The notes: generated from the sequence alone by a model not told the origin. 64,000 bases of DNA from a bacterium (GCA_031551405.1 JAVBNQ010000005.1:33743-97742); one strand, 5' to 3'. Counted from the first letter of the stretch, positions 2,727 to 38,500 are shown. Program-made: numbers and translations.

Positions 2727-2792
2727 AATAAAAAAACCTCTAATAATTTTTATATTTTGGATACTATTATTTTTTAAAATTCAAGTCAAGTT

Positions 2793-3989
2793 TTAATTAA
2801 AAAAATAATCAAAAACCTGTCGCATTGATACATTTGAAATATTGTAATCTTTAAATTTTTCGTAAATAGTTTCAATTGCTTTATCTAATTCTTCGTTTTT
2901 TATACCGTTATTTATAGTCAAATAAGCCTCTATGTATGCAGCTAATTTATCAGCTATTTTTACTAATATACCATCTCGTGGACTGTATTTATCGTAATTA
3001 TATTGCTGAGGGATAAAATCTGCAATCTCATAATATTTTTCATCTTTTAAGATGAGATTAGAAAACTCGTTTTCTGTAAAAATTTTTAAATCTTTCGTAA
3101 TATTTTTTGGCAAAATACTATAAATTTTTTTCATTTCTTCTCGTTCATAATCTTTGATAAAATCATCTAACCCTTCAACGTTAAACTTTATGGGACTAAT
3201 TATATCTCTGGTCAGCGCTTCCGGCAAATCATGAAATAATCCGGTGAAAAAATTATTGTAAATACGGCTGTCACATGCAGAACTTTCTATCGAAAAAAAA
3301 TAACTTATGAGCGCCACCAAAAACATGTGTCCAAGAACACTAGTTTTTGGGATTCGGTACAATTGATTCCAGCGGATTTGATATCTGAGCGACCCGCAAA
3401 TATTAACAAACTTCTTCAAATTATCGCTAAAAGCAAGCTCTTTCACGCTCGTAAGATCAGCGAATTCTTGCTCTCTAGCTATCATATCATTTTTTACTTC
3501 TTCCGTCTGATAACCGTTTAAATTATAATCTTTTATAATATCAAATTCCCATTTTGTTGCTAAAAAATGCGCAGCTTGCAAAATACGTTTATTTATATCG
3601 TAGTCGCAAGTCTCATCAAAAATATAATCTTTAAACTTTTTCAAAAAAATTCCATCATTAATTGATACAAAATCTGGCTCGATTTTTTTGATCAAAAAAA
3701 GGTTTAGCTGCTTATACTTCTCTTTGTCATTTTTAATTTTGAAGAATAACGCCGGCTTGATATCAGTCCAACTCACTCGCTGCAAAAATTCAAAGATTCC
3801 GCCTTCTATGAGCTTCACCCAATCAATTTTTTTACCAAAATTCTCCTCAGTTTTTGCCAAAGTGTACGCGAAAATCATTTTATGAGCTTGCTTATCGAGC
3901 TCGTAGAAATCTATCGGCCGCAAATAATCGTTCCATCTCTGCATAAAAGCTGCTTTATACAAATACAAAAATAAATTTTTACTCAACAT
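2793..3989 (-). CDS. HD-domain phosphohydrolase family protein
   Basis: 398-aa ORF with H...HD-like metal-binding context (GHMFLVALISYF ... FHDLPEALTRDIISP). Confidence 0.55.
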   Translation of the reverse strand: MLSKNLFLYLYKAAFMQRWNDYLRPIDFYELDKQAHKMIFAYTLAKTEENFGKKIDWVKLIEGGIFEFLQRVSWTDIKPALFFKIKNDKEKYKQLNLFLIKKIEPDFVSINDGIFLKKFKDYIFDETCDYDINKRILQAAHFLATKWEFDIIKDYNLNGYQTEEVKNDMIAREQEFADLTSVKELAFSDNLKKFVNICGSLRYQIRWNQLYRIPKTSVLGHMFLVALISYFFSIESSACDSRIYNNFFTGLFHDLPEALTRDIISPIKFNVEGLDDFIKDYEREEMKKIYSILPKNITKDLKIFTENEFSNLILKDEKYYEIADFIPQQYNYDKYSPRDGILVKIADKLAAYIEAYLTINNGIKNEELDKAIETIYEKFKDYNISNVSMRQVFDYFFN

Positions 3990-18304: not shown

Positions 18305-21300
18305 CTAGAACTCCCAATTAAGTCTTACGTCAAATCCTTGTTCAGAATAATACTTTTTTGTCTCGCTTGTGTACGAAAATCCTAAACTATATTGATTTAA
18401 CATTTTTATATCGAATCCAAGCCTCAATCTTAAAACATCTCCTGATTCTGCGCCTTTTATCTTCCAAACCTCACTTCCGCCAACAAATTTCCCTTCGCCG
18501 TTCGTTTCTTTGTCTCCTACTCCAAATCCATAATTAACATCTATTACTCCAATTAACGTACTAAAAAACGCATTTTCTAACACTACTTTTTGCGAAAACT
18601 TCAAACCAATCGGCACCTCCCCTACATTCCTATCAAATTGCTTTATTTTTCTCGTCACACTCGCATCTCCAGTTTCGCTAAATCCATCGAAATATATTTT
18701 CCCAACGTTTAATCCAATATGCGGCAAAATCTGTCCACACCAGCTCTCTGACTCAAATTCCTTAGCCAAAAATCCTATTTCTCCTCTCACTCCTACATAA
18801 TTCAAATCGTATTTTCCTTTAGCTCCGGACTGCAAAAATTCGTAATATGTACTTTCTTCATTTGTCGTCACACTATAATCAAATTCGGCAATCCCGTAAT
18901 AAAATTCTCCATCGTAAGAACCATATAATGCAGCTCCAAATCCTGCTAATTTACTACTCATTGTTTTATTATTTACAAACAATTCTCCCTCGTCATACTG
19001 TAATGCTCCTCCAACCAAATATTCACCAATAAACCTGTCGTATCCAAGAGTAAATCCTTTTGGTTCATACTTGTATCCTACTTTTTCCGCGTGGTCTTTC
19101 TGTTCAAGCTTTCGACTAGAGTACATTCCCCAAATCTTTTGCGTATATCCATCGTTATATCCCAATGTCGCCATTGTCCCTATCGATGCGTATTCTGTAA
19201 ACGGATCTGTTGGATCTCCATTATGAAAACTATCCAATCTATTATCTATCCTATTTCTCAATGTTGTAACATGTTCCAACAAAGTCTCGCTCGTACTCAT
19301 CAACTCGCTTCCCTCTAGTTCAAATCCTAGTTTGTCCAACTCCAGCGCCAAATCTTGAAAAATTCTTCCAGTCATATAAATGTCCGCAAACATTTTTTTT
19401 CTTTATTCGATAAATTCGGATTATTACGATAATAATCGATCGTCTCCTTAAATCCAAACTCGTCTTTTAGCGCTTTCAAATTTATTACCAAATCATAATT
19501 TTTTCCTGTTTCTGCTGTCAGGCTTTCTTCAAAATATACATCAACCAAATTGTTGAAATATGAAAAACTACTTTTTTCTCCTGGCACATACGACGTATAG
19601 TCATCTGTCTCTATTGCATCTTTCAATACTGTTTTGCCTGGCTTAGCTGATACCACATCTCTTACATTTATTTCCAACTTAGCTCCGTCTTCTACTTTAA
19701 CGGTTTTGGCCGATAGTTTCGTAATTTCTTTTGAAGTCAAATATGGCAAATACGAACTATCACTTGAAAAATATAAAAGAGTGTTCGCCTTTTTTGCAAA
19801 CCTCAAATTTGCTCCGCTGCTCAAATCAAGAGCTCCTTCTTTTATTTTAAATGTTCCATTCGTCGCTATATTATTTTCACCTCCTAGCTTCATCACTCCT
19901 TTACCGGTCTTCTCAATATTTATCCAGCCATCTCCGGCTCCACTCGAAAATGGATCTCTGATTTCCAACATCTTTCCTTCGCTTATTTCAAAATTTACAT
20001 TGATTTTTGTATTAACTTGTCTCGCTTCCATAAACATAAAACTTGACTCGCCTTTTGCCGTATTTCCTGCCCAAATCGTTTCGCCACTCGCTTTGTCGTC
20101 TATCATAAATCTCAAACTCGCATTTCCCTCAACGTAAATAGCTCCTCCTTCTCCTTCAATCGCTTTGTTGTTCGTGAACACTGCGTTCCTTATTTCCAAA
20201 TTATTTTCACTCGTCACTGACATCGTCGTCATATATATCGCTCCTCCTAATCTTCCCTCATTTGAATCAAAAATCACCTTCTCTCCCCTAAACGTCGCTG
20301 TAGAGTTCCTCATATACATCGCTCCTCCTACTGCGCTCATGCTCAGGTTTCCTTCAAATAATGCCGATCCTTCAAAAAGAAACGAGGAATTCACAGCAAG
20401 TATTGCTCCACCATCCAATCCAGATTCGTTTTTTCTAAAAATAACATTATCCTTAAACTCTACTCCTCCATACCTGCCTAAACCAATTCCACTTGAGTAA
20501 ATAGCTCCCCCAAATGAATTAACACTTTTATTCTCTTGAAATACTGTTTCTCCGGCGAAAATCGCAATAGAATTATTCAAATAAAATGCTCCGCCACCGA
20601 CTTCTGCTTTATTAAATTCAAAAATAGACGTACCCTGAAATGTTGCAGTTGAATCAATAAGATACAGAGCTCCCCCGGAAATATTCGCTTCATTATTTTT
20701 AAAATAGGCATAGTTTTCAATAGTTAATTTTGAAGCATCCGAGTAAATCGCTCCGCCATTTGTATTTGCCGTATTGCCAGAAAATAAAACACCGTTTTTT
20801 AAATTAAGAATAGATCTATCTACGTTTAATGCTCCTCCGTATGCCATTAAGCTGTTATTAGTCTCGAATTTAGTTGCTCCTTCAAAGCTTAAAACCGTAA
20901 GTTCCAAATGTATAGCGCCTCCAGCAAGTACCGCCGCATTACTCGAAAATGTTGAGTCACTTTTAAAAGTCGCTGTTGACTTAGATAAATACATTGCTCC
21001 ACCGGCAGCGAGGGTGCTTTTATTGGTGTCAAATTTTGACATGCCTTCGAACGTTAAATCTGATCCAAAAGAAAATAACGCTCCTCCATTTGACGTTGCA
21101 GTGTTGCTACTGAAAAAAGAATCTGCTCTAAAAATTCCTATTGAACTTGACAACATCATTGCTGCCCCTGAAGCTCCATTGCTATTGTTATCAAATAATG
21201 CTATCCCTCCAAAATCTAGTTTTGAAGAACTGGCATACACAGCTCCGCCATTATTGGAGGAAGATGAATTTTTTGAGAAAGATGTTAAATTTTGAAAACT

Positions 21301-23874
21301 AACTGTTGACCCCGTCAAATACATTGCTCCACCGCTTGTTTGGGCTGAGTTATTTTCAAAACTAGCCTCAGCTTGAAAAGTTGCTGTAGAATTCAATAAA
21401 TATATTGCTCCGCCAGAAACTTTGGCTTCATTAGCTTCAAAGCTCGCATCTCCTCCAAACTCTAATTTTGCGCTTTCCAAAAACAACGCATCACCAGACG
21501 AAACTAATGACTTGTTATTTTTAAATTCTGCGCTAGTAAAACTCAAACTAGATCGATTTATCGGAGCCACATAAATAGCACCCCCTGAACTAGTACTTTT
21601 ATTGTTATCAAACAAAGCATGCCCTGTAAAAGAAATATTGGAAGCATTATATAAGTGAAATACGCCACCGGATTTATCTGTTTCATTATCTCTGAAAGTC
21701 GCGGTTGAAAAAACAATCTCAGAATTATCAAGATATCCAACTCCTCCTCCAAACGTTTGTAAACTGGTAGCTTTATTTCTTTCAAACAAAGCTTCGTCTA
21801 AAAATGTCAATTTTGAGTTTCCAATTATATAAATAACACCGCCAGGCGCTTTTGCGGCGTTATCAGCAAACAGAGCAGTTGAGTAAAATGTTACGCTAGA
21901 TTTGTCTAGATATAGAGCTCCTCCTCCAAACTTTGTACCAGGATTACTTTGACTCGTACTCTTATTGCCAATAAACTCAGCACCTCCTGTAAATGTAGCG
22001 GTAGATTGATTTAAATACATCGCTCCGCCCGATTGAGTTGTTTCGTTATTTTTAAAGGTCACAGTAGAAAAAGAAATATATGTTGAAGTACTGTATATGG
22101 CGCCACCGTTGCCTGTTCCAGTCACTTTATTCCCTTCAAACCAAGATTCTGAGGAAAATGTAGCGGTAGATTGAAGCAAATACATCGCTCCACCATTTAT
22201 CTTTGCTTCGTTATTTTTAAACGTCACCGCCTAAAAAGAAAGATACGATGAATTACCAGCATAAATTGCTCCACCACTTGACACTATGCCCGTACTTTTA
22301 TTCTCTTCAAACCAAACTTGTCCGGAAAATGTAGCGGTAGATTTGTCCATATAAATTACTCCGCCTGACTGATTAGATGAATTGTTGCTAAATGTTGCAG
22401 TTGAAAAAGAAAGGTATGACGAATTAGCTGCATATATTGCGCCGCCGTTCGAAGTTGCCGTATTGCTCGAAAAAAATACATTTTCTTTCAATATAGCCGT
22501 CGACTTATCTAAATATATCGCGCCGCCGTTTAGTTTAGATTCATTTTTTTAAAAAATACATCTACAAAAGAAAGATACGATGAATTTCCTGCGTATATCG
22601 CTCCTCCGCCCCCTACTGTAGCAAGAGACTTATTTCCTTCAAATAAAGAGTCTCCGGAAAATGTAGCGGTAGATTTGTCCATATAAATTGCTCCGCCACT
22701 TGTTTTAGATTCATTGTTTTTAAGAGAAACATCATCTAAAAAATAGAGTTTTGATTCAGTTTTTGCATTAATCGCTCCACCGGCCGAACCTGTACTTTTA
22801 TTCCCTTCAAATAAAACGTATCTATTGAATGTTGCAGTTGCATTAACGACAACTAGCGCTCCTCCGATCTGATAAGCTTCGTTATTTTTGAATGTTACAG
22901 TAGAAAAAGCAATCGTTCCATTTGCTAAATATACTGCGCCGCCGCCACCCATAATAGTTGTATTTGTACTTTATATTACCTTCGAATAGCGCTTCTCCTG
23001 TAATATTAGTGTTGGATCCAGATAAATACATTGCTCCACCAGTGTTAACTGATACATTATTTTTAAAAATCACATCTATAAAATCTACTTTTAGTCCACT
23101 GCCGGCATAAATCGCTCCGCCGCCGCTTGTTAAACTTTTATTCCCTTCAAATAAAGTAAAATCTGTAAAATTTAACGATGAGTTTGCAATTGAAATACTA
23201 ACAGCTCCTCCTGAGAGCAATGCGGAATTATTTCTAAATGTTACGCTTGAAAATAAAATACTCGATTTTTGAGTTGATGACGGGTTTGTGCCGCCTCCGG
23301 AATATATTGCTCCTCCATTTCCTCCGGATCCGGCTTTATTCCCTTCAAATAAACTTGCCCCTGAAAACGTAACGCTAGAACCCTCGATATAAAACACACC
23401 CCCATATCGCATACCGTTATTATATAAAAACTCCGAATTATTAAAATTGACACTGGACTGATTAATATAAAAAACCACTCCATCCGGATCATTACTGTCT
23501 ACGCTTGCCGAAGAAAAAATTATACTATCTATAGTGACTACGCTATTATTATTAACTTTAAAAATTCTTCCCTTCACTGTCGAGCTACTGACGGTCATCT
23601 TAGTAGTTGAGGATTTCAAAATAATGTCTTCAAGCCCAGAAATTGGAAAACCACCAGAAGCAATGATGCTTTTGTCATCTTGATACAAAATAACACTGTC
23701 TCCTGTCAATAACACACCCGCATTCAAGAATTCTTGCAAAGTGTCATAATAAATTCCACCTACCGGCTGTCCGCTTCCAATATGATACTCTGTTGCAAAA
23801 ACTTTCGCATTAAACGTAAAAAAGAAAAGCAAATTACAGAGAATTAGCGAAATACATTTTTTTAAATTTTTCAT
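18305..23874 (-). pseudogene. Pmp-repeat autotransporter paralog, disrupted by two homopolymer frameshifts, one other frameshift and one in-frame TAG
   Basis: ORF-track fragments 22882..23874 (with signal peptide), 22530..22952, 22231..22491, 19372..22227 and 18305..19393 form one colinear Pmp-like gene; the last fragment is a near-copy of the beta-barrel domain of 10819..17805. Confidence 0.7.
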
Positions 23875-25430: not shown

Positions 25431-25764
25431 AAAACTTCCTTTTTTTCGATTTTTTTTTTAAAATTATATGAAGAATTAATGTAGCAAAATATCCATCGAG
25501 AAGCAATAAAATATTTCAAATATATATATATATAAATTTTGTGAGGGTCAATTGATTTTTTCATGATACCAAATAATAAAACAAAAAAACGCCACTCAAA
25601 GATTCAATTTTAAAAAAAATATTAGAAAAAATCAGTTCATACACGAGGAGAAAAATTTGGCGTAACCGTAAAAGGAAAAAACAATCAAAAAAAATTTGAA
25701 ACTTTTTGCATAAAAAAGTCTCTAACTAGGCGAAAGAGCTCTCAAAAAGAGGGAGGATCCAAAA

Positions 25765-26517
25765 ATGAAAATTGTAAGCTTAAATCCTACAACAATGAAT
25801 CTAATAGTCGAATATATGAGCTTGCCCAACTCTGATGTTTATAAAAAAATTTTATTTGAAAAAATAAAAAATACTGAACTTGGCCTCGAAGCTCTAGAAA
25901 GTCAACAAAATGTTCTTCAAACTTTTAAGACTTTAAGCTCTCCTGAAATACCTAGTTCAGCTTCCATTACAATAACAGAAAAACTCCAAAAAATAAAAAG
26001 CAAGAAGCAAATTAGTTCTGCCAGTGATATTGCTTATAAATTTTTAGCTACACTGAAAACTGCTCTACAAATAAGTCTCGTAACAATTGGAGCGTTTTTG
26101 ATTGGAGTTGGAACAATCGCTTATTTTGTAAACCCTGAAAAAAACATTCAAAATAACAATATCTCATCACCTGCTTTTACTACTAACATTAATTCAACCT
26201 TATCAAAAACTTCTAACACATCTCTAAATTTTCAAGGGAACATCACTTTGGACTCAATCAAAAGTTTTGATTTGGAAAAAAATGAAAATCCACAAAATCT
26301 AAAAGAAAACTCTTTATATGCATTTCAAGGTGAATTAAAAAAATATAAAGCTATAACAAAAGATTCTGAATCTAAAGATGTTTTGGAAGTCTTGCAAAAC
26401 GCTGAGAAAGAGCTCGATAAAAGTTTCATAAATACAAATAAAATCGATAATTATATATATTACGCAGTCTTATCTCAACATGACGTAAAAATTTTATCTG
26501 ACGAAGAGTTAGACTGA
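25765..26517 (+). CDS. Hypothetical single-pass membrane protein (250 aa), first gene of the giant-ORF operon
   Basis: GGGAGG RBS upstream; one hydrophobic helix (LQISLVTIGAFLIGVGTIAYFV); stop lies 13 nt before the start of the 14.2-kb ORF. Confidence 0.55.
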   Translation: MKIVSLNPTTMNLIVEYMSLPNSDVYKKILFEKIKNTELGLEALESQQNVLQTFKTLSSPEIPSSASITITEKLQKIKSKKQISSASDIAYKFLATLKTALQISLVTIGAFLIGVGTIAYFVNPEKNIQNNNISSPAFTTNINSTLSKTSNTSLNFQGNITLDSIKSFDLEKNENPQNLKENSLYAFQGELKKYKAITKDSESKDVLEVLQNAEKELDKSFINTNKIDNYIYYAVLSQHDVKILSDEELD

Positions 26518-26530
26518 TAGAGGGGGAAAA

Positions 26531-29500
26531 ATGTTTATAAAAAATTTAAAAATTACAAAATGTTTGGCGTCATTCTTGGTTGTAACGACTTTTACATGTT
26601 TTATCTTGAATGACTACACCTATGCCCAAACTCCTGCAAAAATATTGCCTTCTATCAGCGAATTACGTAAAGCAAGGGGATATGACAAAACTTTTACAAA
26701 CATCGGTTTTAGAGAAGAAATTGCGATTAATCAAAGCGCTGATTTATACGCTAAAAAAATGAACACAAATTATGCTAATCAGCAAACAAAAATTGAAAAC
26801 AATTTAAAAGCAAAAAAAGAATCTGCTTGGGCAACTGCCGAGAAAAAAACAAATGAAATAAAACAAACTGCCACATTAAATAGAGAACAATTAAATGTAA
26901 ACTATGCAAAAAATCTTGCAGATTACAAATCAACATATTCTGTTCAAAAAGCTAAACTTGCAAGCGATTTTGACATAAAAGTTGCACAAGTAGACAAAAA
27001 TTTGGCGAGGCTTAGAGACGTATCCGCAATAGCTGCAAAAAAAATTGATACTCAGTCCGGTATTAACAAAATAGGCAGCGTAGTAGCCTCTGGTATTATG
27101 AAACCTGTACAAGGGATTATGAGCGGTCTTACATCTGTAGTCGGTTTCTTTTCAGGAAAAGATAATAACCCTCTTACAAAAATAAATGACAAAATACAAA
27201 ACATTGATAAAGATTTGGCTGATTTAAAAAATTCTAAAAACGACAATATGGCTTCTATTCAAAAAAATACTGCTGATCAAATAAAAAATTTAGAGAAAAA
27301 AAAGAAAGATCTGCTTGAAGCTAAAAGTGCATCACTTACAAATATGGACAAAAGAAATGACGAAACTTTGGCAAATATGGAGCTTTCATTCAAAAATGAA
27401 ATAGAAGCCGTAAATAATCGTGAAAATTCTTACATAGCGAGTTTGGTGAATAGTACAACTGATGAACTTGCAAAACTAGACGGTGAAATAAAATCCAGAC
27501 TTGAAGATTTGTACACACTTACAAACTCAGAGCTGGAAAATTATTTATTTGGAGACGATGGCTTATTTAAGAAAGCTTATGAATACGATGACAAAACAGC
27601 CTTACGAAATTTAAAGTCTGATCAAGATAATTCCAATCGTGAAATTCAAACTGACGAAAAAAGCGGTGGTTATATTGGAAATTTAGCTAACTATATGGGA
27701 GTGGAAGAGCAAAAAAGGGCATTTGCAAGTAATCAATACTTAGAAAAAGCAGAAAAACTGCTTTTGTCAGGAGCTAGTGATGGTACGAGAAGAGCCGGTG
27801 AATTTGCTGCAGCAGCCGGTGTAGTTAGCAAAGATGCCCAAGTTTTGATGCCACGCGATTTTTCTGATGCAAGTTTGGCTCGAAGCGGCGCTATAGAGCT
27901 TAATATGGATCAAGGCGAAGCCGCAGGCACCGTCCGAGATAACAAAGTAGCAAATATAGACGCATCATTCTTAAAATCCCAGCAAGAACTTGCCGACTAT
28001 TCTGACAGCATAGTCAAATATTCCGACGAAGTTACCGGTTTTCTAGAGGATACAATCAACAATTTTGCTGATAATTCGAAAAATGAGATGAATGATTTTA
28101 CCAACAAAACGGTCAAAAAGAATGATGAAATCAATCAAAAAGAAATACAAGCGCTTTTGGCATTTGTAAAAGAACTGCAACAATATATGGATATGGTCTG
28201 GCCGGAGTCACAATCTGCAGGCTATGAGCGAGCTACTGAAGCATTAAAAGAAGCCGCTGAATTATACTTGAACGCGTCAATTGATACCCTTGCTATTATA
28301 CTTGCTGTAGTCTTAGGAATTGTCGGTGGATTAGTTGCGACTATTATAGGTGCAATATTTCTTATAACTACAGGAATTCCTATGATATTTTCCGGTATTT
28401 TAACTCCCTGCGGAATTGTACAGGTAGTGGCCGCTGTAGCTAGCTTAATAATCGGTATTACCGGAGTAGCTCTTGGTATTTGGGGAATTATATCAGCCAT
28501 AAGTGAACGTGAACAATTAAAAACTGCGCTCGAAATAGCAAGTAATAATGTCAAGGTTTTAAACGATTTGTTGCCGGATCCATCAAAAAAAGACTGGCCT
28601 GAGAACACACCTAGTGAGTACAAAGTTTTCATGGATGCAGAAAAAAATTATAATTCAGCTATGGGCCAATTTAAAGTAATGTTTTTCAGACGTTTCGGCA
28701 TAGAAGGCCTAAAAAAAGTCAGAAACAAAATAAACCAAATAAACAGGTTATTAGGAAAAAAAGGCATCTCTGGACTGACTCATGACGAATTATTAAAATT
28801 ACAAGAACTACTCTTTTTCTTCAAACCTGCTTCTAACGATAAACTCCTAAAAAGATCGATGGAAGGACTGAAAAATACTTTTAAATCATATCAAGAGGCT
28901 TTAGAAAACTTCAAAAAATCCACAAAGACTGTAACATACACATTAAAAGAGCTCAAAGATGGAAGCATTGTAGAAACTACTTACACAAAAACTATTTGGG
29001 AGGCTTATCAAGACAAACAATTTTGGGGAGTTGTCGCCAGCGAATTAGATATGGCTCTAAACAATGCATACGTATTTGATATCGACGCAAATGGAAATGT
29101 AATAAAAGTAGATAGATCTGATGGATCAACTTACACTGAAGAATATAAGGATCCAGAAACCGGAGAATGGAAAACAGTTACTAAGAAGGGTTGGAGTGGC
29201 TTTGCAAATAAAGCATCTCAATCTGGAGATCGTTTTTTTTCTGCTATAAATAATGGCTTCACTAAGTTTATAGATGCAACAGATGCATTCTTCTCTGGAG
29301 TAATATCTGGTGTAATATACGGGGTTACTTTTGGTCACGTCAAGGTAGATAAATTTCCTACTTGGGTCAAGGGGATAACGACATTTATTCCAAATTTCTT
29401 CAAAGCTATAGTAGATATGACTTTTATGGGATATAACCTCACCTTGCATCTTGCAAAAGGGTTATCTCAGAATGGTGTTTTGAAAGGTTTACAAGATTTT

Positions 29501-32500
29501 GCTCTCGGAATGGCCTCTTTCCCTCTTGGCATTATTGAAAATGCGATTGGTATGAAACAGGGAACATTCTTAGATCTATTCAAAGGAAAAACTCACAGTG
29601 CAAAAGAAATTTGGGGCGAAGGAGAATACTGGAATCCCGGAGCAGCTGCAGGAACTTTAGGTTTCACTATTGTTATGATGATGGGGAGCCCTTCCGGAGC
29701 TTCTTCTATAAAAGCTTTTGTTAGTAATATTAAATCAGCACTTTCGTCAATATGGAACGCTATTAAGTATGTTGCAGTGAATGGAATATGGGCCGGATTA
29801 AAAGCTTCTTTCAAAGTTGTCGGATCTGCTCTAGGAAAAATAATAAATTGGACGAAATCCCAATTCAATTTCAAAACCGTACTAGGGAATGGTTTTAAAG
29901 CCGGAGTTAGTGCAGTTTTACATAACGTTTTATCAGGTGTTAAAATTGGATTAGGGGGTTTAGGAATCGCTGCTGTAGCTGTCTTAGGCGCAGCAGGGAG
30001 TATAGCAGGTAGCATAGTATTTGGCTTAGGAAAGAGTTTACTTACAGCGACTAAAGCTCTTGCCACTACTGCCTCTAAATATCTTAAAAAATTCTATAAA
30101 GAATCTTCTATAAAAAGTCTATTTAAATGGGCTTCTAAACAAGTTACTCCTAGAAAAAGTGCAGGAGCATTGCTTGCAGCCATATTATTAACCCCTGTTT
30201 TAATCGTATCTCACGTATTAGGTATTACACAAGCCATAAAACAGCTTCATACAGGTTTTGTAGGTTTAAGAAAAGAATATAAAGCAATGCAAAAGGTATA
30301 CAATTCTACCGGTTCTTATGTACAAACACGAAATGGAATGCCTGTAAACTTAAGGACTCAATTCATTCAAAATACTATCTCTTATGGACTGCAAGTTCCT
30401 CAAGTTTTAATTAACACTGTTATGTCTGTAGCGTTAGCTCCCCTTCTTATCACTAGCCCCCTTCTTTTTATAGGAGTTAAAATAGGTCACGTTTTCTGGT
30501 CGGAAGTTATCTTAGGGCAGAGAAAATTACGGGCGATGCAAAAAGAGCAGCAAAAAGAGCAATCTCGTGGAGCCATCAACTCTCAAAAAACCCAAATTGA
30601 ATCCGAAACCAATGCTCAAGCAGTGCAAGCTTCAGCAAGAAATCTTCGTGATCACGCGAAAGCTTTCGGTATAGAAGTTTTCGACAAAACAGGAAAAAGC
30701 TTAGGAGTAGTTAGCTATAAAGTCTTCATGGAAAAAATGATTAGTGGAGAGATATCCAGCTTTGCAGTAAATCAAGGAGGCTCTAAAAACGCAATATCGC
30801 TTGGTATCGGAGCACGCGAAGCCTTGACTAGAGATTATTTGGCATCACGAGATAATGCCAGTTTAACAAGACTACTTGCCCGTAATAACGGTAATAATAA
30901 ACTAGAGGCTTTGGTCGCGGCAGAGCGAGTTCAACGAAGCACCATAATCTTAAGAGAATATAACGCACAAAGACAAAAATTAACAGGTCAGTCAGCTATT
31001 AATTTTCTAGAACAAATGCTTAATCAAAATAAGTTACGAAGCAAGGTGGCCACTTCTGCACAAAAAGCCTTTTTAAAAATGCAAAATGCAGCTATAAAAA
31101 CAGAGCTCGCAAATCTACATGCTCAAGCACTTGCTGCAAGAATAGAATTCTTATTTAGTCAATCTAAGCTTGATCCTAAGATTGTTGAGCTACTTGATTC
31201 TAATTTAGGAATATTAGATTTCTCAAAAATAAAAGCCGGTGGTCTAACACGTAATGCTGCAGAAACACTTGTAAGACAAATGGGAGATATTTTGGGAGTA
31301 GTTTCAAAAAAATATCAAGAGAGCTGTTCAACAGGAAACAAACAAATCATAAAAGACTCAAGCTCTGTAGTCTCAGCAAGATTTAAAGAAATAGTAAACA
31401 GCGAAAAATTTCAAGAAATTTTAAAGATTGCAAGCCTAGCAGAGAGGCAACAAAAAATAATGGATTATATGAAAGAGTTGAAAGCAGTTGAAAGCGCTAC
31501 TCCTCCAACTGCTTTGGAAAGACTAGTAATTGATAGGATGACGCAAGTTCTTAGAGATAATCCTTCAATTACTCCTAAACAGCTAGCAAAAATGGAAGTC
31601 CAACTGCAAAAAGAAACTGTTTTAGCTCTAGAAACCGGAGCTCTTGTTTATAACGGGTTTACAAGTTATAACAACATTGCTGACGGTATAAAACAACTAG
31701 GCGTGCGACCTGATTTAGAATTAAATAACCAAAGAAAAGCAGTGAAAGCTACGACGGCATTAAATGAAATTGAAATTACAGCTCATCATCAGACTGTTGT
31801 TAGCCAACTTAACGAAATCATAGCAATGAAACCTGAACTCTTCAGCAAGAACCAAGGTCCCGCAGAAGGAAGAATTGAGGCACGAAGAAAGGCTAATTCA
31901 GATTTTATAGCTTCAGTACGCGAAAAATATAAAAATGACCCAATTGGCAAAATACTTGCAAAAAGACTTGAGTTTTTATTGGAAATCAACGTTTACAACA
32001 ACCAAGGAATTTCTGCAAAGGATATGAAGAATTTCACAAGTCTCCTCAAAGAAGAAGTTACTTTCGCCTTAAAATCCGGCGATATAGTTCCTGCTAATGG
32101 GCGTTTTATCTCGCAAACTCAAATGGAGGCATACCTAAAAACTTTTGCAAGCGAAGCCGAACTTATGCGGCATGCACAAGAAACCTTCAAAGTTCAAAAA
32201 CAAAAAGAGGCTTTAGATAAAAAATATGAGGGGAAACAGTTTGAAAAATATTCTAGAAGCAAAAGAAACGCAGCCCAAGATTTAGTCAAAGAATGTCTTG
32301 TTATAGGAAATATGGGAGAAAAAGAAAGACAAACTGCTATTGAAGCTCTTCAAAAACAAATATCTGATATAAAAATTGAAAGAGACACCGAAAGTCCAAG
32401 CATGAGAAAATTATTAAATCGACAAGTTGATGCATTAGAAATGTTGGTAAGCTCAATAAAAAACAACGATGTTGCGAGGATAAAAGAGGCTGTAACAGCT

Positions 32501-35500
32501 TATTTTTCAAAGGGAGGAGCGAGCAGTAGCGTGACAGCTGAAGCTTTCGTAGCAAGTATAAAATCTGTTATAACCGTTACAGAAGCATTTGCTGAGAGAG
32601 TAGATCAACTAAGTCGAATTTCGAAGGATCACGAAATTCATAAGGCTGATGGAAAATTAAGCATGCAAGACTTCCAAAAAAGAGAGGTCGGTGCAGAAAC
32701 CAAAGCAACATTAGTAATCTTAAAGGCTCAACTGGACGCATTAAAAGACACCTCAACAAGGCCAATTAGTTTAGAAACTTATAAAGAATATGCTGCTTTA
32801 AGAGAAAAAATTGAAAAAAGCGATGCTTACAAAAATGCAACCACTGAACAAAGAACAGCTGCGACCACTGCAACAACACCACATGAAATACTGGCGGCCG
32901 CACTCAATCCACTAGAGGCTGTGACATATAATAAACTTATGGAACAATTTAAAGGCTTAGACTTAAAAAGTGAGCAAAGCTTTAGGGACAGCTTTAACCA
33001 AGCTATACGAGAGAAAATTAATTTGTTTGTAGCGGAAGCTGGATCTTCGATGCCAGTCGCAACAATAGTAGATTACTTACGAGGTAATCGCTCTCGTATC
33101 CCAACAGATCTAATGGCTAGTTTAGAGCAACAAATTGTTAATAAACTTAAAGGACGCGAGGCAGTAACAGCTAACGATCTTACTAGAGATCAGGCTTTAC
33201 TTGGAACTCTGCCTCAGTCTTCAATTAGAGAAGTGTTAGCTGCTCGTCCTGACTTGCATAGGCTGATACTTCAAAAAGAAATATCTTATTTGCAAGCAAA
33301 AGAAACTGTTCCTGCTGCTGTCCAAGAAGCGAATAGGCAAGTAAACGAAACCCTAAGTCTTACTGATGCAGCTGCTCTTGTCAAACTAAAAGAAACAATC
33401 GCAACAATTAGCGATCCGACTTTAAAAAAACAAATAACCGCACTTATTAAAGGCAAAGAATTAGGAAAAATTACTTTTGCGAGATTGAGCGAGTTAATCG
33501 AACAAACAAAATCAAGTCCGGAAGCCACTCAAGCGTTAAACTTGATTGTTTCCAGACGAATGAATCAGCTACAAACGTATAAGAACGCAGCCGGAAGTGC
33601 CCAAAAATCTGCCTCTAATGCTCTTATTGCCGAATATAAAAAACTAGAAGACTACATTATGAAAGGTGTAGAAAAAGCATCCGCTGGATATTTGGAAATT
33701 TTAAATAGAGAGCATCTACCTCTAATGGAAAAAATGTATAAAATAATGGAAGCAGCCGGTATTCCAAAAGCAGAGATTTCTACTTTTGATCTATCAACTG
33801 GCAAAATAGGAGATAAAACTTTTTATCAAAAAGTCCAGGAACTTGCCAGTGCAAAAAAATTAACTTCAGCCGAATATATTCAAAGAGAATTATTCGGAGA
33901 AAACCATCAACTAACACATCTTCAAGCTGACGCACTCAGAGTCGTAGGGTTAAAACTGATAGAAGGACATAACAAAATAGGTGACGGAACCATAACAGCC
34001 AGGACAGCTGCACTCACTGACCCTAACTTCAATTTTACACAAAAACAAATCTTGATGATGGCAGCCAATGACCAAGGAATGATTGCTGCTCTTGGAATGG
34101 GAGGAGGAAAAACCAGAGTTTATCCTACTGTAATAGGCTCTATGATGCAAAAAGGAATAGGCGGAGGTATTGGTGAAATTCTGGTTTCTTCAAAACAAGA
34201 AATCGCTAATATGTTAGGCAATAAAGATTACATGGAAACCTTTTATGGTGTTAAAATGCTTGATGGAACCAAGTTGCATGCAGAAAATAAATTAGGAGAA
34301 ACACTCGCCAGCCACAAAAGAGACGGTATAAAAGTCATAGTTGTCTTTGACTTAGAGACAAGAGGACATTTGTCTCACGAGATCAGAACTAATAAAAGCC
34401 TGCAAATCCTAGACAAAATAGATATTTTGGCTATTGACGAAGCTGATGCCTTATCTCTAAAACAACAATCTTTTATTAATGCAGAAAGGCTGCCAGCAAC
34501 CGATCTGATTAAAAACCAAGTAGCGAAGATTCTAGAAACTTACGAAAAATTGAAAGGTGAAGGTGCAGAAAAATTTGATGCTAAAAAAGGCGGATTTGCT
34601 GACAAAACCTTTTTGGATGCAATGTTGGCCGAGCTAAAAACCAACGCTGAATTCCAAAAAGATCAAAGCTCTTACCTTAAAAAATCACTTTTTAGTTTAA
34701 GTGACAAAGAATGGACCGGACAAACCAGCGCAATGATAACCCAAGTTTTGAGAGGTCGTGCCGAGGTGCTTTCCGGGGAAACAAAAGGTGGATTCAAAGT
34801 AGACACTGTTGGTGGTATTCAAGTCGGAGTTCAAGATGGAAACAACTACAACTCAGTTGCCGTTCAAATTATAGATGCATTCCAAAAAAATGCACCACAA
34901 GGAGTTACTTTCTCAATCGAAAGATTTAAAACAACGACAGGAGCGAGTGTATCAGAATTTGCTGCTACGGTTTCAAAAACTACGGTTGAATCTGCCGCGC
35001 AAGAAATTCTTACCAGGGCACCCGGAGTTAGATTGCACGTTTTCGGAGGGTCAGGAACAACAGGCGGCGCTAAACGTATCAGCGAAGCTGTCACTGCTCC
35101 GGTAGCAGAAATCTCCGAAGCCTCTTTTGCTAACTATGCGTTCAATACGCAAGTACAAAAACCCGGACAGCGAACAACAGATGTGGTGGCTGCATTTGCC
35201 GGGAAAGCCTTGGAGGGTAAATGGGGACGACTTATCATTCAATCGCAAGAGAATTTAGCAGAAAACCTCTTGGCTACAATAGAAAAAGTAGCAGGCCCGG
35301 AAGCTGCAGCAGCATTTAAAAATGCGGCTAGCACTAGCGGCAAAGTTGAACGAATCTCAGATGTACAATTCGCGATAGAAAAATTAGACTCAGCCTTTGT
35401 CGATCCGGTTTTCATAAAAGGACAAGGAGGTGGATTCATAAGTCTCAACCAAGCTATTACAGACGGGTTAGTAAGATCTAATGGGAAAAAGTTTTTTGAA

Positions 35501-38500
35501 ACAGTGTCTGGCAGAGAAGTCAAAGTAAGTTTAGGTGATATTTTAGCGTCTCCAACAGCAATGAGAGAATTGAATATCCCAGAAAATCATAGAGCAACTT
35601 TACAAAAAATCATAGTAATAGATCATTACACTAATCCTGAAAGCGTGAGTGGTCTAGCAAAAAATACTTCAGCAAATGGCAATATTGTCTTTTCTACTGC
35701 AAAAGCAGGCAGAGGCATGGATTTTAGAGGAAAAATGCAATTACTAGTCACGGATGTTGATTCGCTTGCAAAAAATGATTTCCTACAAATATCCGGACGT
35801 GTTGGTCGCGGTGAGTCCAGAGATGTATTCCATAGAACAGTTCTAGTCAATCCTACTCAACTAAAATCTACTTTTACGGAACAAATTGAAATTTTGCAAC
35901 AAAAAAAAGAATTCATGCAAAGCAGTACTCTAGGGAAAGAATTTATCGAACAAGGAGGCGGCCTTAAAGCTCCTCCTGCAGATAGGCAAATTACTCAATC
36001 AGAACAAGCATTCAGGGCAGAGTGGACGGAATTACAAAGTAACTTAAAAAGTTTAAAAATATATGAGAAACAGCTTGATAAAGGATCATTTACGCAAGCG
36101 TCATCCGCAGAAATGATCCGAGCCAGCACAATAATACAAGGAGAATTTAAATCCAACGGAGCAGCTCTTTATCAAATAGGCGAAGGCGTCAGGTCAGCGA
36201 TCCTAAAAATTCCTCTTGAAAGGATGAAAGCCAAAGCTGAAGCTATGGGTAATACTCATGACGCAGCTTTGATCCAACGCATAATAGATGAAATGATCAG
36301 AACAAACAAAGGAGCTACGGCAGATGCTTTGATCTTGCAAGAGTCCGGATGGAAAAATCCAAAAGAAGTTTTTGAAAAAATGATGAAAGCAAATTACGAG
36401 GCTGCCATTCAAATTTATAAAATGTTAGATGCAGTAAGAATCACAGATCCAAAAAGCATGATGGAAAAAGTAGCTTCACCTATTACAAGAAAAGTAGCAA
36501 TAGGTGAATTCAATGTTGGGTTACAAGATCCAACATTATTAAGAGAAGTTAGAACTCGTGTTTTGGATTTAGAACAAGGGAAAATGGAAGTCCAAGCAAT
36601 AGGCAAAAGAGATTGGTATGAAACCAGAGCTAAAGCAACTGAAAAAGCTAAATCCGGACAACTGACTACTTTATCAGAAATTAATTCAATGGATAACCCT
36701 CAAATAAGTCGTCAAGTCTTGGAAACCGTAACTTATGTAGCGAAAGATTTGAATCCTCAACGGAAAACTACGGCATCAGACTCATACGCTCCAAAACAAA
36801 CCGTAAGAATAGCCAACCAGGCTCTTACCGGCGTAAAAGGGACAGAAGCCGTAAGGGTAAATACCAGTAATGCAGGACAGCTGGTATCGTCTTTGGAGCA
36901 TTACAAGACAAAAGGCGATAGAATAGGTGCCATTGTTTTGACTAATAGACAACTCATAGCATTACAGCAAGATCCGATTGCTTATAAAAGATTCCAAGCC
37001 GAAATTGTAGCTACTACAGATTGGAAACATGGAGTATTCGCAACAGGACAAGCTAAAATTTTAATAGCAGACAGTGATCAAGATATAACCAATGGAAGAG
37101 CCAAGACGCTAGAACAAGCACTTGGACAAGCACAAGCTCTTAAACCACCTATTGTAACAAATGCCACTCAAATAGTTCTAGGCAGCTCATCTCAAGATAA
37201 GAAAAAAGACAAAGATTTACAAAAACTTTTTGAAATTCAAACAAGAGATTTGCGAGCAGGTATTGACCCTAAGCTTTGGGATGATTTGGATACTAATCTA
37301 GAAATCGCTATTGATAAACAACGATTTGATGCAATGCCAGAAAAGGCGAGACAAGAATTTATAGCACAATTGGGACGAGAAGCGCAATTACGAAGTGAAC
37401 GCGCTAGGGACGCTGGTAAAGATACCGGTCAAGTAACCGCAGTTTTGAGAGAGGAGGTAGTGGATACGAGTCTTAAGGGAAATCAAATCGCAACTTCCGT
37501 GCTCAGTAAGCTCTCGACACAGCCTACTGTTAGATCCGAAGCTCTTGCGCTGTTAATAGAAGCTCAAGAATCAGAAATAGCCAGACTAGAAAAAGAAAAG
37601 GGAGCAGCATCAGACCTAGAAAGCTTAGGCCTTGAAGCTTTATTTAATGAAGAAGCGCTTGTTACTAAAAAAGATCTTGAAGCCAAAATACAAGACCTTA
37701 AAGTCGAAAGACAAAAACTACTTGCCCTAGAAACTGAGGTAAGAATATTCGAAACTATGGATAAAATAATAGACACAAAAACAAACAAACAAGAAGCTTT
37801 GGCTTTAACAAAAAAAGCTCAGACTTTACTTCCTCAATTGGCAGCACAAATGGATAGATTAAATGACGAAGCACAAGCTCTTCAGACGCAAGTTCAAGTT
37901 ATAGGCCAAGAACTTTTAGATCAAGGGAACTTGGCTGTTCTCGCTAATATTGTAAGAGGAGACCAAGCGCCTCAAATCATACAACAATATACAACCCTTA
38001 GAGACGATAAAAATGAAGCTTTAAAAGATAAATTGCTTGCAATCGCTAGAACTGCAGCCCCTACTGAACAATCTAAAGTTATGACGCATTCAACACTACT
38101 CATGACTACTGATGCTACTGTTAATGCCGGATATGCAAAAATAGAAGAACAATACAGAAAAGACGTATTCCCAGGCGTTTATCAGCCTACTGTAAATGCT
38201 GATGCTAATGCTACGACTTCACCTCAACAGCCCGTTGTAGTTCAAAATGCCAGATTAGACTTGGCTCAACCTGCGATACTCAAAGATGCAAAAGCAAAAC
38301 TTAAAAATGAAGCGGAAGGAAACAAATCTACCTCTAGCCAAGGACCATCAACTGCTGCTAAAACACAATACACTTCTCTCGTGACCATGGAAGTACGCGA
38401 CAAACTTTTAACAGAAACAGGAGTCAGTCAGCTAGAAATCGTTATAAGTACAGAAGTCCAAGACGCTGCTGAAAAAGCTCTAAGAGATGGCGTACAAAAA

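What the first reader, a model, noticed from the sequence alone, without database searches (positions are those of the whole stretch)
28289..30520. Glycine-rich hydrophobic/TM clusters in the N-terminal third of the giant protein
A first cluster (28289..28500; LAIILAVVLGIVGGLVATIIGAIFLITTGIPMIFSGILTPCGIVQVVAAVASLIIGITGVALGIWGIISAI) looks like 2-3 tightly packed TM helices with small-residue GxxxG-like spacing. Further hydrophobic segments follow up to ~30520 (e.g. GVKIGLGGLGIAAVAVLGAAGSIAGSIVFGLG; VALAPLLITSPLLFIGVKIGHVFW). With the signal peptide this implies a membrane-inserted or pore-forming module upstream of the ATPase.
Basis: inference. Interest (0 to 1): 0.6.

Follow-up and report, generated by a model that had tools for sequence, protein, structure and literature searches.

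The report
Membrane anchor of a giant ATPase
The glycine-rich hydrophobic stretches are real and are most likely the membrane-spanning anchor helices of a 4,745-residue unannotated envelope protein with a SecA-like ATPase; this rare protein family resembles the giant membrane proteins with SecA-like motors recently described in other uncultured bacteria.

Summary
The giant ORF (26531..40768, 4,745 aa) has a 71-residue stretch with no charged residue (aa 587-657, nt 28289-28501). Three further strongly hydrophobic segments follow (aa 1133-1167, 1208-1236, 1289-1323). The remaining 3,400 residues have none. An exhaustive HMMER search of 1.84 billion cluster representatives found only eight relatives. 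In every relative that covers the region the clusters sit at the same positions, but their length and sequence vary.

Cluster 1 is best read as a helical hairpin. Both flanks are acidic in all six homologues, and the low-confidence AlphaFold model shows two long helices with a turn at aa 621-624. The second cluster lies in a conserved, strongly basic stretch. The N-terminus is a conserved Sec-type signal peptide.

The downstream ATPase is a two-lobe superfamily 2 (SF2) motor. Foldseek ranks SecA first, and a ~200-residue insertion sits between motifs II and III, where I recall SecA's preprotein-binding domain to lie.

Best reading: an inner-membrane anchor that places the N-terminal domains in the periplasm and the ATPase in the cytoplasm. 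A pore-forming role is neither supported nor excluded. "GxxxG spacing" is no more than glycine-rich composition gives. This is a new variant of a known kind, of moderate interest.

The parts
25765..26517 (+). Conserved 250-aa single-TM partner ORF, 13 nt upstream of the giant gene and probably co-transcribed. Possibly an anti-sigma factor.
   Evidence: A homologous ORF of 241-261 aa with no Pfam hit sits directly upstream of the giant gene in all four loci with context. Those with DNA available align at 25-28% identity. An ECF sigma gene precedes it in two of the loci. The family is orphan.
26531..40768 (+). Giant ORF of 4,745 aa with no curated domain hit.
   Evidence: A strong Shine-Dalgarno-like GAGGGGG lies upstream. 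The identical protein is found on independent Logan and NCBI contigs.
26531..26626 (+). Sec-type signal peptide (aa 1-32, predicted cleavage after TYA).
   Evidence: It has a basic n-region, a 16-residue h-region and a conserved DY[ST]xA c-region in all six homologues. The cleavage site is inferred from the -3/-1 rule.
26627..28261 (+). N-terminal exported (periplasmic) helical domain, aa 33-577, with conserved motifs (GGYIG, NQYLEKA, SGASD, EFAAAAG, MPRDF, YMDMVWP).
   Evidence: Family alignment, 43% mean pairwise identity over aa 370-470. The periplasmic location is inferred from the signal peptide.
28289..28501 (+). Hydrophobic cluster 1 (aa 587-657): helix A aa 587-612, hydrophobic loop TTGIPMIFSGILTPCG aa 613-628, helix B aa 629-657. 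Read as a transmembrane helical hairpin.
   Evidence: KD peak is 2.85 and there is no charged residue. Two segments are favourable for insertion, 588-606 and 639-657. The AF2 model gives two long helices with a break at aa 621-624 at low pLDDT. Both flanks are acidic in 6 of 6 homologues. 98-99% of residues are apolar or small in all six, at only 24% identity and variable length of 56-88 aligned residues.
28538..29050 (+). Folded alpha+beta domain between the clusters (aa 670-840), the only confidently modelled part of the module.
   Evidence: pLDDT is 66-87 in the AF2 model. The domain is conserved in the family.
29288..29698 (+). Moderately hydrophobic, glycine-rich conserved region (aa 920-1056). 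It includes the conserved E-Y-W-N-P-G motif followed by a TM-like helix (aa 1032-1056), a candidate additional membrane span.
   Evidence: ITTFxPxFFK, GxxQGT and EYWNPGxAxGT are conserved.
29699..30565 (+). Strongly basic stretch (aa 1057-1345; 34 K/R against 5 D/E) that contains the second set of hydrophobic segments.
   Evidence: The same basic bias is present in P0002, P0003 and P0005.
29927..30031 (+). Hydrophobic segment aa 1133-1167 (29% Gly).
   Evidence: KD 2.14. Insertion energy is marginal. Composition.
30152..30238 (+). Hydrophobic segment aa 1208-1236.
   Evidence: KD 2.41. The PVL..S.I.G.T..IK motif is conserved in P0002 and P0006.
30395..30499 (+). Hydrophobic segment aa 1289-1323, followed by the conserved NE.VLGQ(R/K) motif.
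   Evidence: KD 2.04. Alignment.
33893..35977 (+). SF2 (SecA/DEAD-like) ATPase core, aa 2455-3149: motif I GGGKT 2524, motif II IDEAD 2635, putative motif III GGSGTT 2839, motif V AGRGMD 3059, motif VI GRVGRG 3089.

Best explanation
The hydrophobic clusters are alpha-helical membrane-embedded segments that anchor a giant SecA/DEAD-like ATPase protein in the producer's own cytoplasmic membrane.

Proposed mechanism:
1. The conserved Sec signal peptide sends the N-terminal ~545-residue helical domain across the membrane (inferred).
2. Cluster 1 (aa 587-657) inserts as a tight two-helix hairpin. The following folded domain (aa ~670-840) therefore stays on the same, periplasmic side as the N-terminal domain. 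This step is supported by flank charges and the AF2 secondary structure, but is not proven.
3. One or more of the later hydrophobic segments (aa ~1032-1323) carries the chain back to the cytoplasm. These segments lie in a lysine-rich, almost acid-free stretch typical of cytoplasm-facing membrane-proximal sequence.
4. The C-terminal ~3,400 residues then sit in the cytoplasm, where ATP is available. They comprise a long helical spacer, the ATPase with an inserted domain at what I recall as the position of SecA's PPXD (preprotein cross-linking domain), and the C-terminal modules. This placement is inferred.

The module is thus an anchor that permanently tethers a SecA-like motor to the membrane. 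The same role has been proposed for the TM regions next to divergent SecA_DEAD domains in giant Omnitrophota proteins. The exact number of spans is unresolved.
For: - Hydrophobicity far above TM thresholds, confined to aa 587-1323, and well above shuffles.
- The same clusters lie at the same positions in all homologues that cover the region, at 22-35% identity. In cluster 1 the apolar character is 98-99% conserved while identity is only 24% and length varies. That is the signature of an anchor.
- Both flanks of cluster 1 are net acidic in 6 of 6 homologues, which implies that both lie on the same, non-cytoplasmic side.
- AF2 predicts two long helices with a turn at aa 621-624.
- The second cluster is embedded in a conserved basic stretch, +10 net charge per 100 aa.
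- The signal-peptide-like N-terminus is conserved.
- The ATPase is an SF2 motor: Foldseek's top six hits are SecA, the best at E = 8e-5 and probability 0.98.
- A ~190-204-residue insertion between motifs II and III is present in all five full-length members.
- The literature precedent is giant proteins with numerous TM regions adjacent to divergent SecA DEAD domains that lack the scaffold and wing domains, with the TM regions proposed as the anchor (bioRxiv 10.1101/2023.11.21.568195).
- The context is chromosomal housekeeping genes, not phage or mobile element.
Against: - No dedicated topology predictor was available, and the parity of spans is unresolved.
- Cluster 1 is 88-94 residues long in three homologues. 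That length could hold three spans, which would flip the topology.
- In cluster 2 the sequence on both sides of the putative spans is basic. This does not fit a simple alternating topology, so some segments may be re-entrant or interfacial.
- The AF2 model of the module has mean pLDDT 45 and is below 50 over all hydrophobic segments.
- The cytoplasmic location of the ATPase is inferred only from its need for ATP.
Confidence: 0.6

Rival explanations
1. Translocation or pore-forming module of a secreted toxin or effector. The protein is released, and the hydrophobic hairpin plus surrounding helices insert into a target-cell membrane, as in the diphtheria toxin T domain, the colicin hairpin or the TcdA/TcdB hydrophobic region. 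The ATPase-bearing C-terminal part would be delivered by this route.
For: A hydrophobic helical hairpin flanked by long helices is the general plan of alpha-helical translocation domains (established knowledge). The protein is very large and has a signal peptide. PMP-type autotransporter surface proteins are encoded nearby. If the ATPase acted in a target cell it would have ATP there.
Against: There is no sequence or fold match to any toxin translocation domain, although the fold search used a low-confidence model. Helices this hydrophobic behind a Sec signal peptide should stop transfer in SecYEG and stay in the producer's inner membrane (inference from established Sec biology). No dedicated secretion system, chaperone or immunity gene lies next to the gene in four loci; the conserved neighbour is a small single-TM protein, and in two loci an ECF sigma factor as well. 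Cluster 1 is poorly conserved in sequence.
Confidence: 0.12
2. Self-contained translocase. The glycine-rich TM clusters, possibly as an oligomer, form a conduit that is driven in cis by the SecA-like motor. It would export the protein's own extracytoplasmic parts or a partner substrate.
For: A SecA-like motor and TM segments sit in one polypeptide. Self-export has been suggested for the SecA-like domains of giant Omnitrophota proteins. The glycine-rich helices would allow close helix packing. Polar motifs in cluster 2 are conserved (EYWNPG, NP in the last segment).
Against: About 1,200 residues of helical spacer separate the last TM segment from the motor. Cluster 1 has no conserved polar or charged residue and varies in length. 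Glycine spacing is not beyond composition. The exported parts (about 545 and 260-470 aa) are within reach of the ordinary Sec system.
Confidence: 0.1
3. The segments are not membrane-embedded. They form the buried core of a soluble helical domain, or they are an artefact of a mis-called ORF.
For: AF2 gives no confident tertiary model, so a soluble fold cannot be excluded by structure alone.
Against: A run of 71 residues without a charge and with a KD mean up to 2.85 is far outside the range of soluble cores. The ORF and the clusters are conserved in independent metagenomes. Length variation of 56-88 aligned residues (60-94 for the trimmed hydrophobic cores) with conserved apolarity is not how globular cores evolve.
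Confidence: 0.03
4. Inc-like effector. Cluster 1 is a bilobed hydrophobic domain of the chlamydial inclusion-membrane-protein type, inserted into a host vacuole membrane after type III secretion.
For: The shape and length of cluster 1 match the bilobed hydrophobic domain. The only NCBIfam hit is the hydrophobic domain of the Inc protein GarD. PMP-repeat autotransporters, first described in Chlamydia, are neighbours.
Against: The GarD hit scores 14 bits against a cut-off of 100 and is compositional. The N-terminus is a Sec-type signal peptide, which Inc proteins lack (established knowledge). The only named relative is from an Elusimicrobiaceae MAG, not Chlamydiota. No type III secretion genes appear among the ORFs scanned in the window.
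Confidence: 0.02

Closest known systems
Giant Omnitrophota and Actinobacteria proteins with numerous TM regions and divergent SecA_DEAD domains (West-Roberts et al. 2023, bioRxiv 10.1101/2023.11.21.568195)
   Same: Both are very large, largely unannotated proteins that combine several TM segments with a highly divergent SecA-like DEAD motor. In those proteins the adjacent TM regions are proposed as the membrane anchor of the motor. Here the ATPase's best Foldseek matches are SecA, and there is an insertion at what I recall as the PPXD position.
   Different: This protein is 4,745 aa, not 10,000-85,000. Pfam SecA_DEAD and SecA_PP_bind do not hit it. It has no glycosyl hydrolase, peptidase, dockerin or other enzyme domains. 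The TM module lies in the N-terminal third behind a signal peptide, about 1,200 residues before the motor. The family appears to be from Elusimicrobiaceae-like bacteria and is paired with a small single-TM protein, with an ECF sigma factor upstream in two loci. No sequence homology to those giants was shown.
Canonical SecA translocation ATPase
   Same: It has a two-RecA-lobe DEAD motor. The motifs AGRGMD and GRVGRG resemble SecA's AGRGTD and GRSGRQG (from memory). The motif I to II spacing is ~111 aa. An insertion of ~200 aa lies between motifs II and III, where I recall SecA carrying the preprotein cross-linking domain. SecA structures are the top Foldseek hits.
Bilobed hydrophobic domain of chlamydial Inc proteins
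   Same: It is a 60-70-residue uncharged stretch read as two TM helices joined by a short loop, with both flanks on the same side of the membrane.
   Different: There is no significant homology (14 bits against a cut-off of 100). The export signal is Sec-type. The lineage is not chlamydial.
Hydrophobic hairpins of alpha-helical toxin translocation domains (diphtheria toxin TH8-TH9, colicin pore domain, TcdA/TcdB hydrophobic region)
   Same: It is a hydrophobic helical hairpin embedded in a longer helical region of a large protein.
   Different: There is no sequence or fold match. The hydrophobic stretches here are more numerous and much more apolar. A Sec signal peptide is present. No receptor-binding or enzymatic toxin domains were detected.
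Secondary SecA_DEAD proteins linked to type I secretion-like genes (Kamneva et al. 2015, PMC4452313)
   Same: They are a second, divergent SecA-type motor besides the housekeeping SecA, proposed to power a non-canonical export route.
   Different: [quoted passage not shown] They are encoded next to HlyD, OEP and peptidase_M50 genes. None of those neighbours is present here.

Membership tests
Giant TM + SecA_DEAD proteins (West-Roberts et al. 2023) | Several predicted transmembrane helices in the same polypeptide as the motor | tested here: met
   There are at least 5 strongly hydrophobic helices in aa 587-1323, conserved in the family.
Giant TM + SecA_DEAD proteins (West-Roberts et al. 2023) | Detectable Pfam SecA_DEAD and SecA preprotein-binding domains | tested here: not met
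   There is no Pfam hit on the whole protein at E <= 1. On the ATPase segments only DEAD (best E = 1.6e-4, 4 of 5 members) and Helicase_C score, both below threshold.
Giant TM + SecA_DEAD proteins (West-Roberts et al. 2023) | Gene length in the giant class (>10,000 aa; the paper's focus is >30,000 aa) | tested here: not met
   This protein is 4,745 aa; the family spans 4,745-6,141 aa.
SecA-type DEAD motor | Two RecA-like lobes with SF2 motifs I, II, V and VI in order | tested here: met
SecA-type DEAD motor | Large domain inserted between motif II and motif III (the PPXD position) | tested here: met
   The gap from IDEAD to GGSGTT is 190-204 residues in all five full-length members. The SecA positions used for comparison are recalled, not computed here. 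The fold of the insert was not identified.
SecA-type DEAD motor | Closest structural neighbours are SecA rather than other SF2 families | tested here: inconclusive
SecA-type DEAD motor | Helical scaffold and wing domains after NBD2 | not tested
   The region after aa 3150 was not modelled.
Chlamydial Inc proteins | Bilobed hydrophobic domain of about 40-70 residues | tested here: met
   Cluster 1 is 71 residues in two lobes. This is a resemblance in shape only.
Chlamydial Inc proteins | Type III secretion substrate without a Sec signal peptide, in a chlamydial genome | tested here: not met
   A conserved Sec-type signal peptide is present. The nearest named relative is from Elusimicrobiaceae. 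The GarD model scores 14.2 bits against a cut-off of 100.
Large-toxin translocation / pore domains (e.g. TcdA_TcdB_pore, diphtheria T, colicin) | Sequence or fold similarity to a known translocation domain | tested here: not met
   There is no Pfam or NCBIfam hit. The Foldseek PDB search of the module model found nothing at E < 0.1. The fold test is weak because the model's pLDDT is 45.
Glycine-zipper / GxxxG helix-packing motif | GxxxG or small-xxx-small spacing enriched beyond what composition gives | tested here: not met
   In cluster 1, GxxxG occurs 2 times against 1.46 expected (P = 0.45) and small-xxx-small 9 times against 6.8 expected (P = 0.18). Only a G-3/4-G-7 pattern is marginal (P = 0.045).
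Integral inner-membrane protein (generic) | Membrane-span predictions from a dedicated predictor and experimental membrane association | not testable with these tools
   TMHMM, DeepTMHMM and TOPCONS were not available. Only hydropathy, a recalled insertion-energy scale and charge bias were used.

The most novel reading that the evidence does not exclude
The N-terminal TM clusters and the in-cis SecA-like motor together form an autonomous single-polypeptide export or membrane-remodelling machine. This could be a self-exporting giant envelope protein, or a private translocon for a partner. It may be switched on by a dedicated ECF sigma / anti-sigma pair. It would represent a compact, tractable (~5,000 aa) version of the unexplained TM + SecA_DEAD giant proteins of uncultured bacteria.
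Probability: 0.12. Interest if true: 0.75.

Novelty: new variant of a known kind. Interest (0 to 1): 0.4.

Why it matters
Giant bacterial proteins that combine membrane spans with divergent SecA-like motors were described only recently, from metagenomes, and nobody knows what the motors do. Those proteins are too large (30,000-85,000 aa) to handle experimentally.

The family found here has the same two ingredients in about 5,000 residues. It has a clean layout: signal peptide, periplasmic domain, TM hairpin, second TM set, spacer, motor. It also has a conserved small partner gene. If its topology and ATPase activity were tested, it could show whether such motors serve self-export, membrane anchoring or something else.

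For annotation, the practical result is that this "hypothetical protein" should be labelled a membrane-anchored SecA/DEAD-like ATPase protein. The hydrophobic clusters themselves are an ordinary feature, a membrane anchor, and not evidence for a toxin pore.

Tried and rejected
- **Whole-protein word-index search.** It timed out. The same tool found nothing for aa 1-1400 or for the ATPase alignment. It did not even return the query's own entry, so these negatives are uninformative. The exhaustive HMMER search is the reliable result.
- **Genome-contig scan with the single protein.** It found nothing. The scan with the ATPase alignment found one Elusimicrobiaceae contig lying wholly inside a homologous giant gene.
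- **Two metagenome-contig scans.** Neither found anything. One alignment was too divergent to be used at all.
- **Phage tape-measure, ejection or polyvalent-protein idea.** There is no tblastn match in 50,697 phage records and no PHROGs hit. The context is chromosomal housekeeping genes. Rejected.
- **Defence-system helicase idea.** There is no PADLOC hit. Rejected.
- **PDB sequence searches of the ATPase.** The single sequence and the profile gave only non-significant motif V-VI matches to Mfd.
- **Fold search of the TM-module model.** There is no match below E = 0.17. The model is of low confidence, so this says little.
- **Amphipathic-helix scan of aa 850-1400 with the Eisenberg moment.** It found only one peak, so the idea of lysine-rich in-plane amphipathic helices is not supported at that threshold.
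- **Chlamydial Inc reading.** Considered because of the PMP neighbours, then rejected; see the rival explanations.

Full report
**The observation**

The finding lies inside a single + strand ORF, 26531..40768, encoding 4,745 aa. The quoted peptides are exactly there. The first cluster is aa 587-657 (nt 28289-28501). The two later examples lie in aa 1133-1167 and 1289-1323.

Kyte-Doolittle 19-residue means reach 2.85 in cluster 1 and 2.0-2.4 in three later segments (aa 1133-1167, 1208-1236, 1289-1323). Apart from the N-terminal signal peptide, nothing else in the protein reaches the usual 1.6 threshold. Cluster 1 has no K, R, D or E over 71 residues.

A rough insertion-energy sum (Hessa-type scale, values recalled from memory) finds four favourable 19-mers, all in this region. 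Shuffles of the whole protein give 0.3 on average.

Glycine makes up 10.1% of residues in aa 587-1330 against 5.6% elsewhere.

**Is it a real, conserved feature?**

Pfam, NCBIfam, PHROGs and PADLOC give no significant hit on the giant protein. An exhaustive HMMER search with aa 541-1400 against 1.84 billion cluster representatives found only eight proteins:
- the query itself;
- four other giants of 4,785-6,141 aa;
- three fragments.

All are singletons, and every one that carries a name in its source record is called "hypothetical protein". A scan of GTDB species representatives found one more, a contig wholly inside such a gene in an uncultured Elusimicrobiaceae MAG. JGI metagenome scans and the phage collection found nothing.

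Every homologue that covers the region shares these features:
- a signal-peptide-like N-terminus with a conserved DY[ST]xA end;
- a conserved helical N-terminal domain;
- a first hydrophobic cluster immediately after a Y-x-D/E-M-V/I-W-P motif;
- a second group of hydrophobic segments 350-600 residues later.

In cluster 1, 98-99% of residues are apolar or small in all six sequences. Pairwise identity is only 24%, and length ranges from 56 to 88 aligned residues. Membrane anchors evolve in this way. Globular cores and selective channels do not.

**Anatomy and topology**

Cluster 1 of the window protein has three parts:
- a 26-residue apolar helix (aa 587-612);
- a 16-residue hydrophobic loop bounded by two proline/glycine turns (TTGIP...TPCG);
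- a 29-residue apolar helix (aa 629-657).

AlphaFold2 with the six-sequence family alignment gave a poor model: mean pLDDT 45, and below 50 over all hydrophobic parts. It does draw two long helices (aa 559-620 and 625-680) with a break at aa 621-624.

In all six homologues both flanks of cluster 1 are net acidic: 2-3 K/R against 5-9 D/E on the N-terminal side, and 1-4 against 3-6 on the C-terminal side. By the positive-inside rule (established knowledge), both flanks should lie on the same, non-cytoplasmic side. That means an even number of spans, i.e. a hairpin.

Combined with the signal peptide, this places two domains in the periplasm (inference):
- the N-terminal ~545-residue domain;
- the following folded alpha+beta domain (aa ~670-840, the only confidently modelled part, pLDDT 66-87).

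The second hydrophobic group lies in a stretch (aa 1057-1345) with 34 K/R and only 5 D/E. P0002, P0003 and P0005 share this bias. That is typical of cytoplasm-facing, membrane-proximal sequence.

A conserved E-Y-W-N-P-G motif followed by a moderately hydrophobic helix (aa 1032-1056) is a candidate for the span that returns the chain to the cytoplasm.

The number of true spans in aa 920-1323 cannot be fixed with the tools at hand. Some segments may be re-entrant: AF2 breaks 1133-1167 and 1289-1323 in the middle. Three homologues have an 88-94-residue cluster 1 that could hold three spans. Topology is therefore a model, not a result.

**The ATPase downstream**

The motor core spans aa ~2455-3149. 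It has motif I GGGKT (2524), motif II IDEAD (2635), a putative motif III GGSGTT (2839), motif V AGRGMD (3059) and motif VI GRVGRG (3089). The spacing is the same in all five full-length members.

- Pfam gives only sub-threshold DEAD and Helicase_C.
- PDB sequence searches give nothing significant.
- An AF2 model (pLDDT 60) matches SecA structures best by Foldseek: ranks 1-6, E = 8e-5 to 4e-3.

The ~200-residue insertion between motifs II and III, and the AGRG(M/T)D form of motif V, are SecA hallmarks as I recall them. That comparison was not computed here. I therefore call it a SecA/DEAD-like SF2 motor. Membership of the SecA family is not established.

**Context**

The gene is chromosomal. 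It lies between purH and rsmE-dnaJ-dnaK-grpE-hrcA, near PMP-repeat autotransporter genes and a V-type ATPase operon.

A 250-aa single-TM ORF (25765..26517) ends 13 nt before the giant gene. A homologous small ORF sits in the same place in all four loci with context. In two of them an ECF sigma factor gene lies directly upstream. The small protein is also an orphan. It may be an anti-sigma factor (inference).

**Best explanation and rivals**

The clusters are membrane-embedded helices that anchor a giant SecA/DEAD-like ATPase protein in the producer's inner membrane. The N-terminal domains face the periplasm and the motor faces the cytoplasm. Confidence is about 0.6 for this full model. Confidence is much higher for "membrane-embedded" alone.

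The rivals are:
- a toxin-type translocation or pore module (0.12);
- a self-contained translocon driven in cis by the motor (0.10);
- a soluble core or an ORF artefact (0.03);
- an Inc-like type III effector (0.02).

The pore idea has no positive evidence. There is no match to translocation domains. The sequence of cluster 1 is poorly conserved. Such hydrophobic helices behind a Sec signal peptide should stop transfer in the producer's own membrane. The only Inc-like signal is a 14-bit compositional hit to the GarD hydrophobic domain, against a cut-off of 100.

**Comparison with what is known**

The closest described kind is the set of giant Omnitrophota and actinobacterial proteins. [quoted passage not shown] For them the adjacent TM regions were proposed as the anchor, and self-export as a possible role (bioRxiv 10.1101/2023.11.21.568195).

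The present family works like these in outline but fails several membership tests:
- it has no Pfam SecA_DEAD or PP_bind hit;
- it is one tenth of the size or less;
- it has no enzyme or adhesion domains;
- no sequence homology to those giants was shown.

Its layout also differs. The TM module is N-terminal behind a signal peptide. It has a conserved small partner gene. The lineage is different (an Elusimicrobiaceae-like relative).

Stand-alone secondary SecA_DEAD proteins linked to type I secretion genes (PMC4452313) are a more distant comparator.

**Verdict**

The feature is real and conserved. It is most probably a membrane anchor, and the TM clusters in themselves are ordinary. The protein they belong to is an orphan, compact variant of a recently recognised and unexplained class. 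Novelty: new variant of a known kind. Interest: 0.4.

Noticed in passing
window 25765-26517 (+); L005 7229-7954; L006 6929-7714: A conserved orphan ORF of ~241-261 aa with a single TM helix always sits directly upstream of the giant gene. In two homologous loci an ECF sigma factor (Sigma70_r2 + r4_2) lies immediately before it, which suggests an anti-sigma factor and extracytoplasmic-signal control of the giant gene. The window lacks the sigma gene at that position (purH lies there on the opposite strand).
   Followed up: partly
window 40748-40765 (last residues of the giant ORF); C-termini of P0002 and P0004: The extreme C-terminus is conserved in the complete family members (...RHLDSAA, ...RYLDTAA, ...QLETAA; P0005 ends ...EQLQNAK). 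The ending in two alanines is reminiscent of ssrA-type degradation or recognition tags. Its function is unknown.
   Followed up: no
window 18305-23874 (-), junction at about 19392-19399: A PMP-repeat passenger ORF (19372..22227) and an autotransporter beta-domain ORF (18305..19393) overlap by 22 nt in different frames. An A8 homopolymer lies just upstream of the beta-domain ATG. This looks like one autotransporter gene split by a frameshift, caused either by a sequencing error or by a phase-variable tract. Another PMP ORF (22882..23874) lies upstream.
   Followed up: partly
P0002 aa 4440-4478 (locus L003/L004): One homologue carries an extra 39-residue hydrophobic hairpin-like insertion in its C-terminal region, absent from the window protein. 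This hints that the C-terminal modules also lie close to the membrane.
   Followed up: no
contig of P0005 (JGI 3300075153; no DNA retrieved): This homologous locus has Tad-pilus-type genes (Tad, TadE) upstream. It also has a second, even larger unannotated gene (7,875 aa) about 1.3 kb downstream of the giant gene.
   Followed up: no
window 30566-33892 (aa ~1346-2454 of the giant ORF): The helical, K/E/Q-rich spacer between the last hydrophobic segment and the ATPase varies greatly in length between homologues. The Walker A motif is at aa 2524 here, against 2737, 3001, 3474 and 3690 in the others. This behaves like an extensible stalk or coiled coil.
   Followed up: no
window 25521-25536: A short (TA)n run (atatatatatatatat) lies in the AT-rich intergenic region upstream of the small partner ORF, in the likely promoter region of the two-gene unit.
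   Followed up: no
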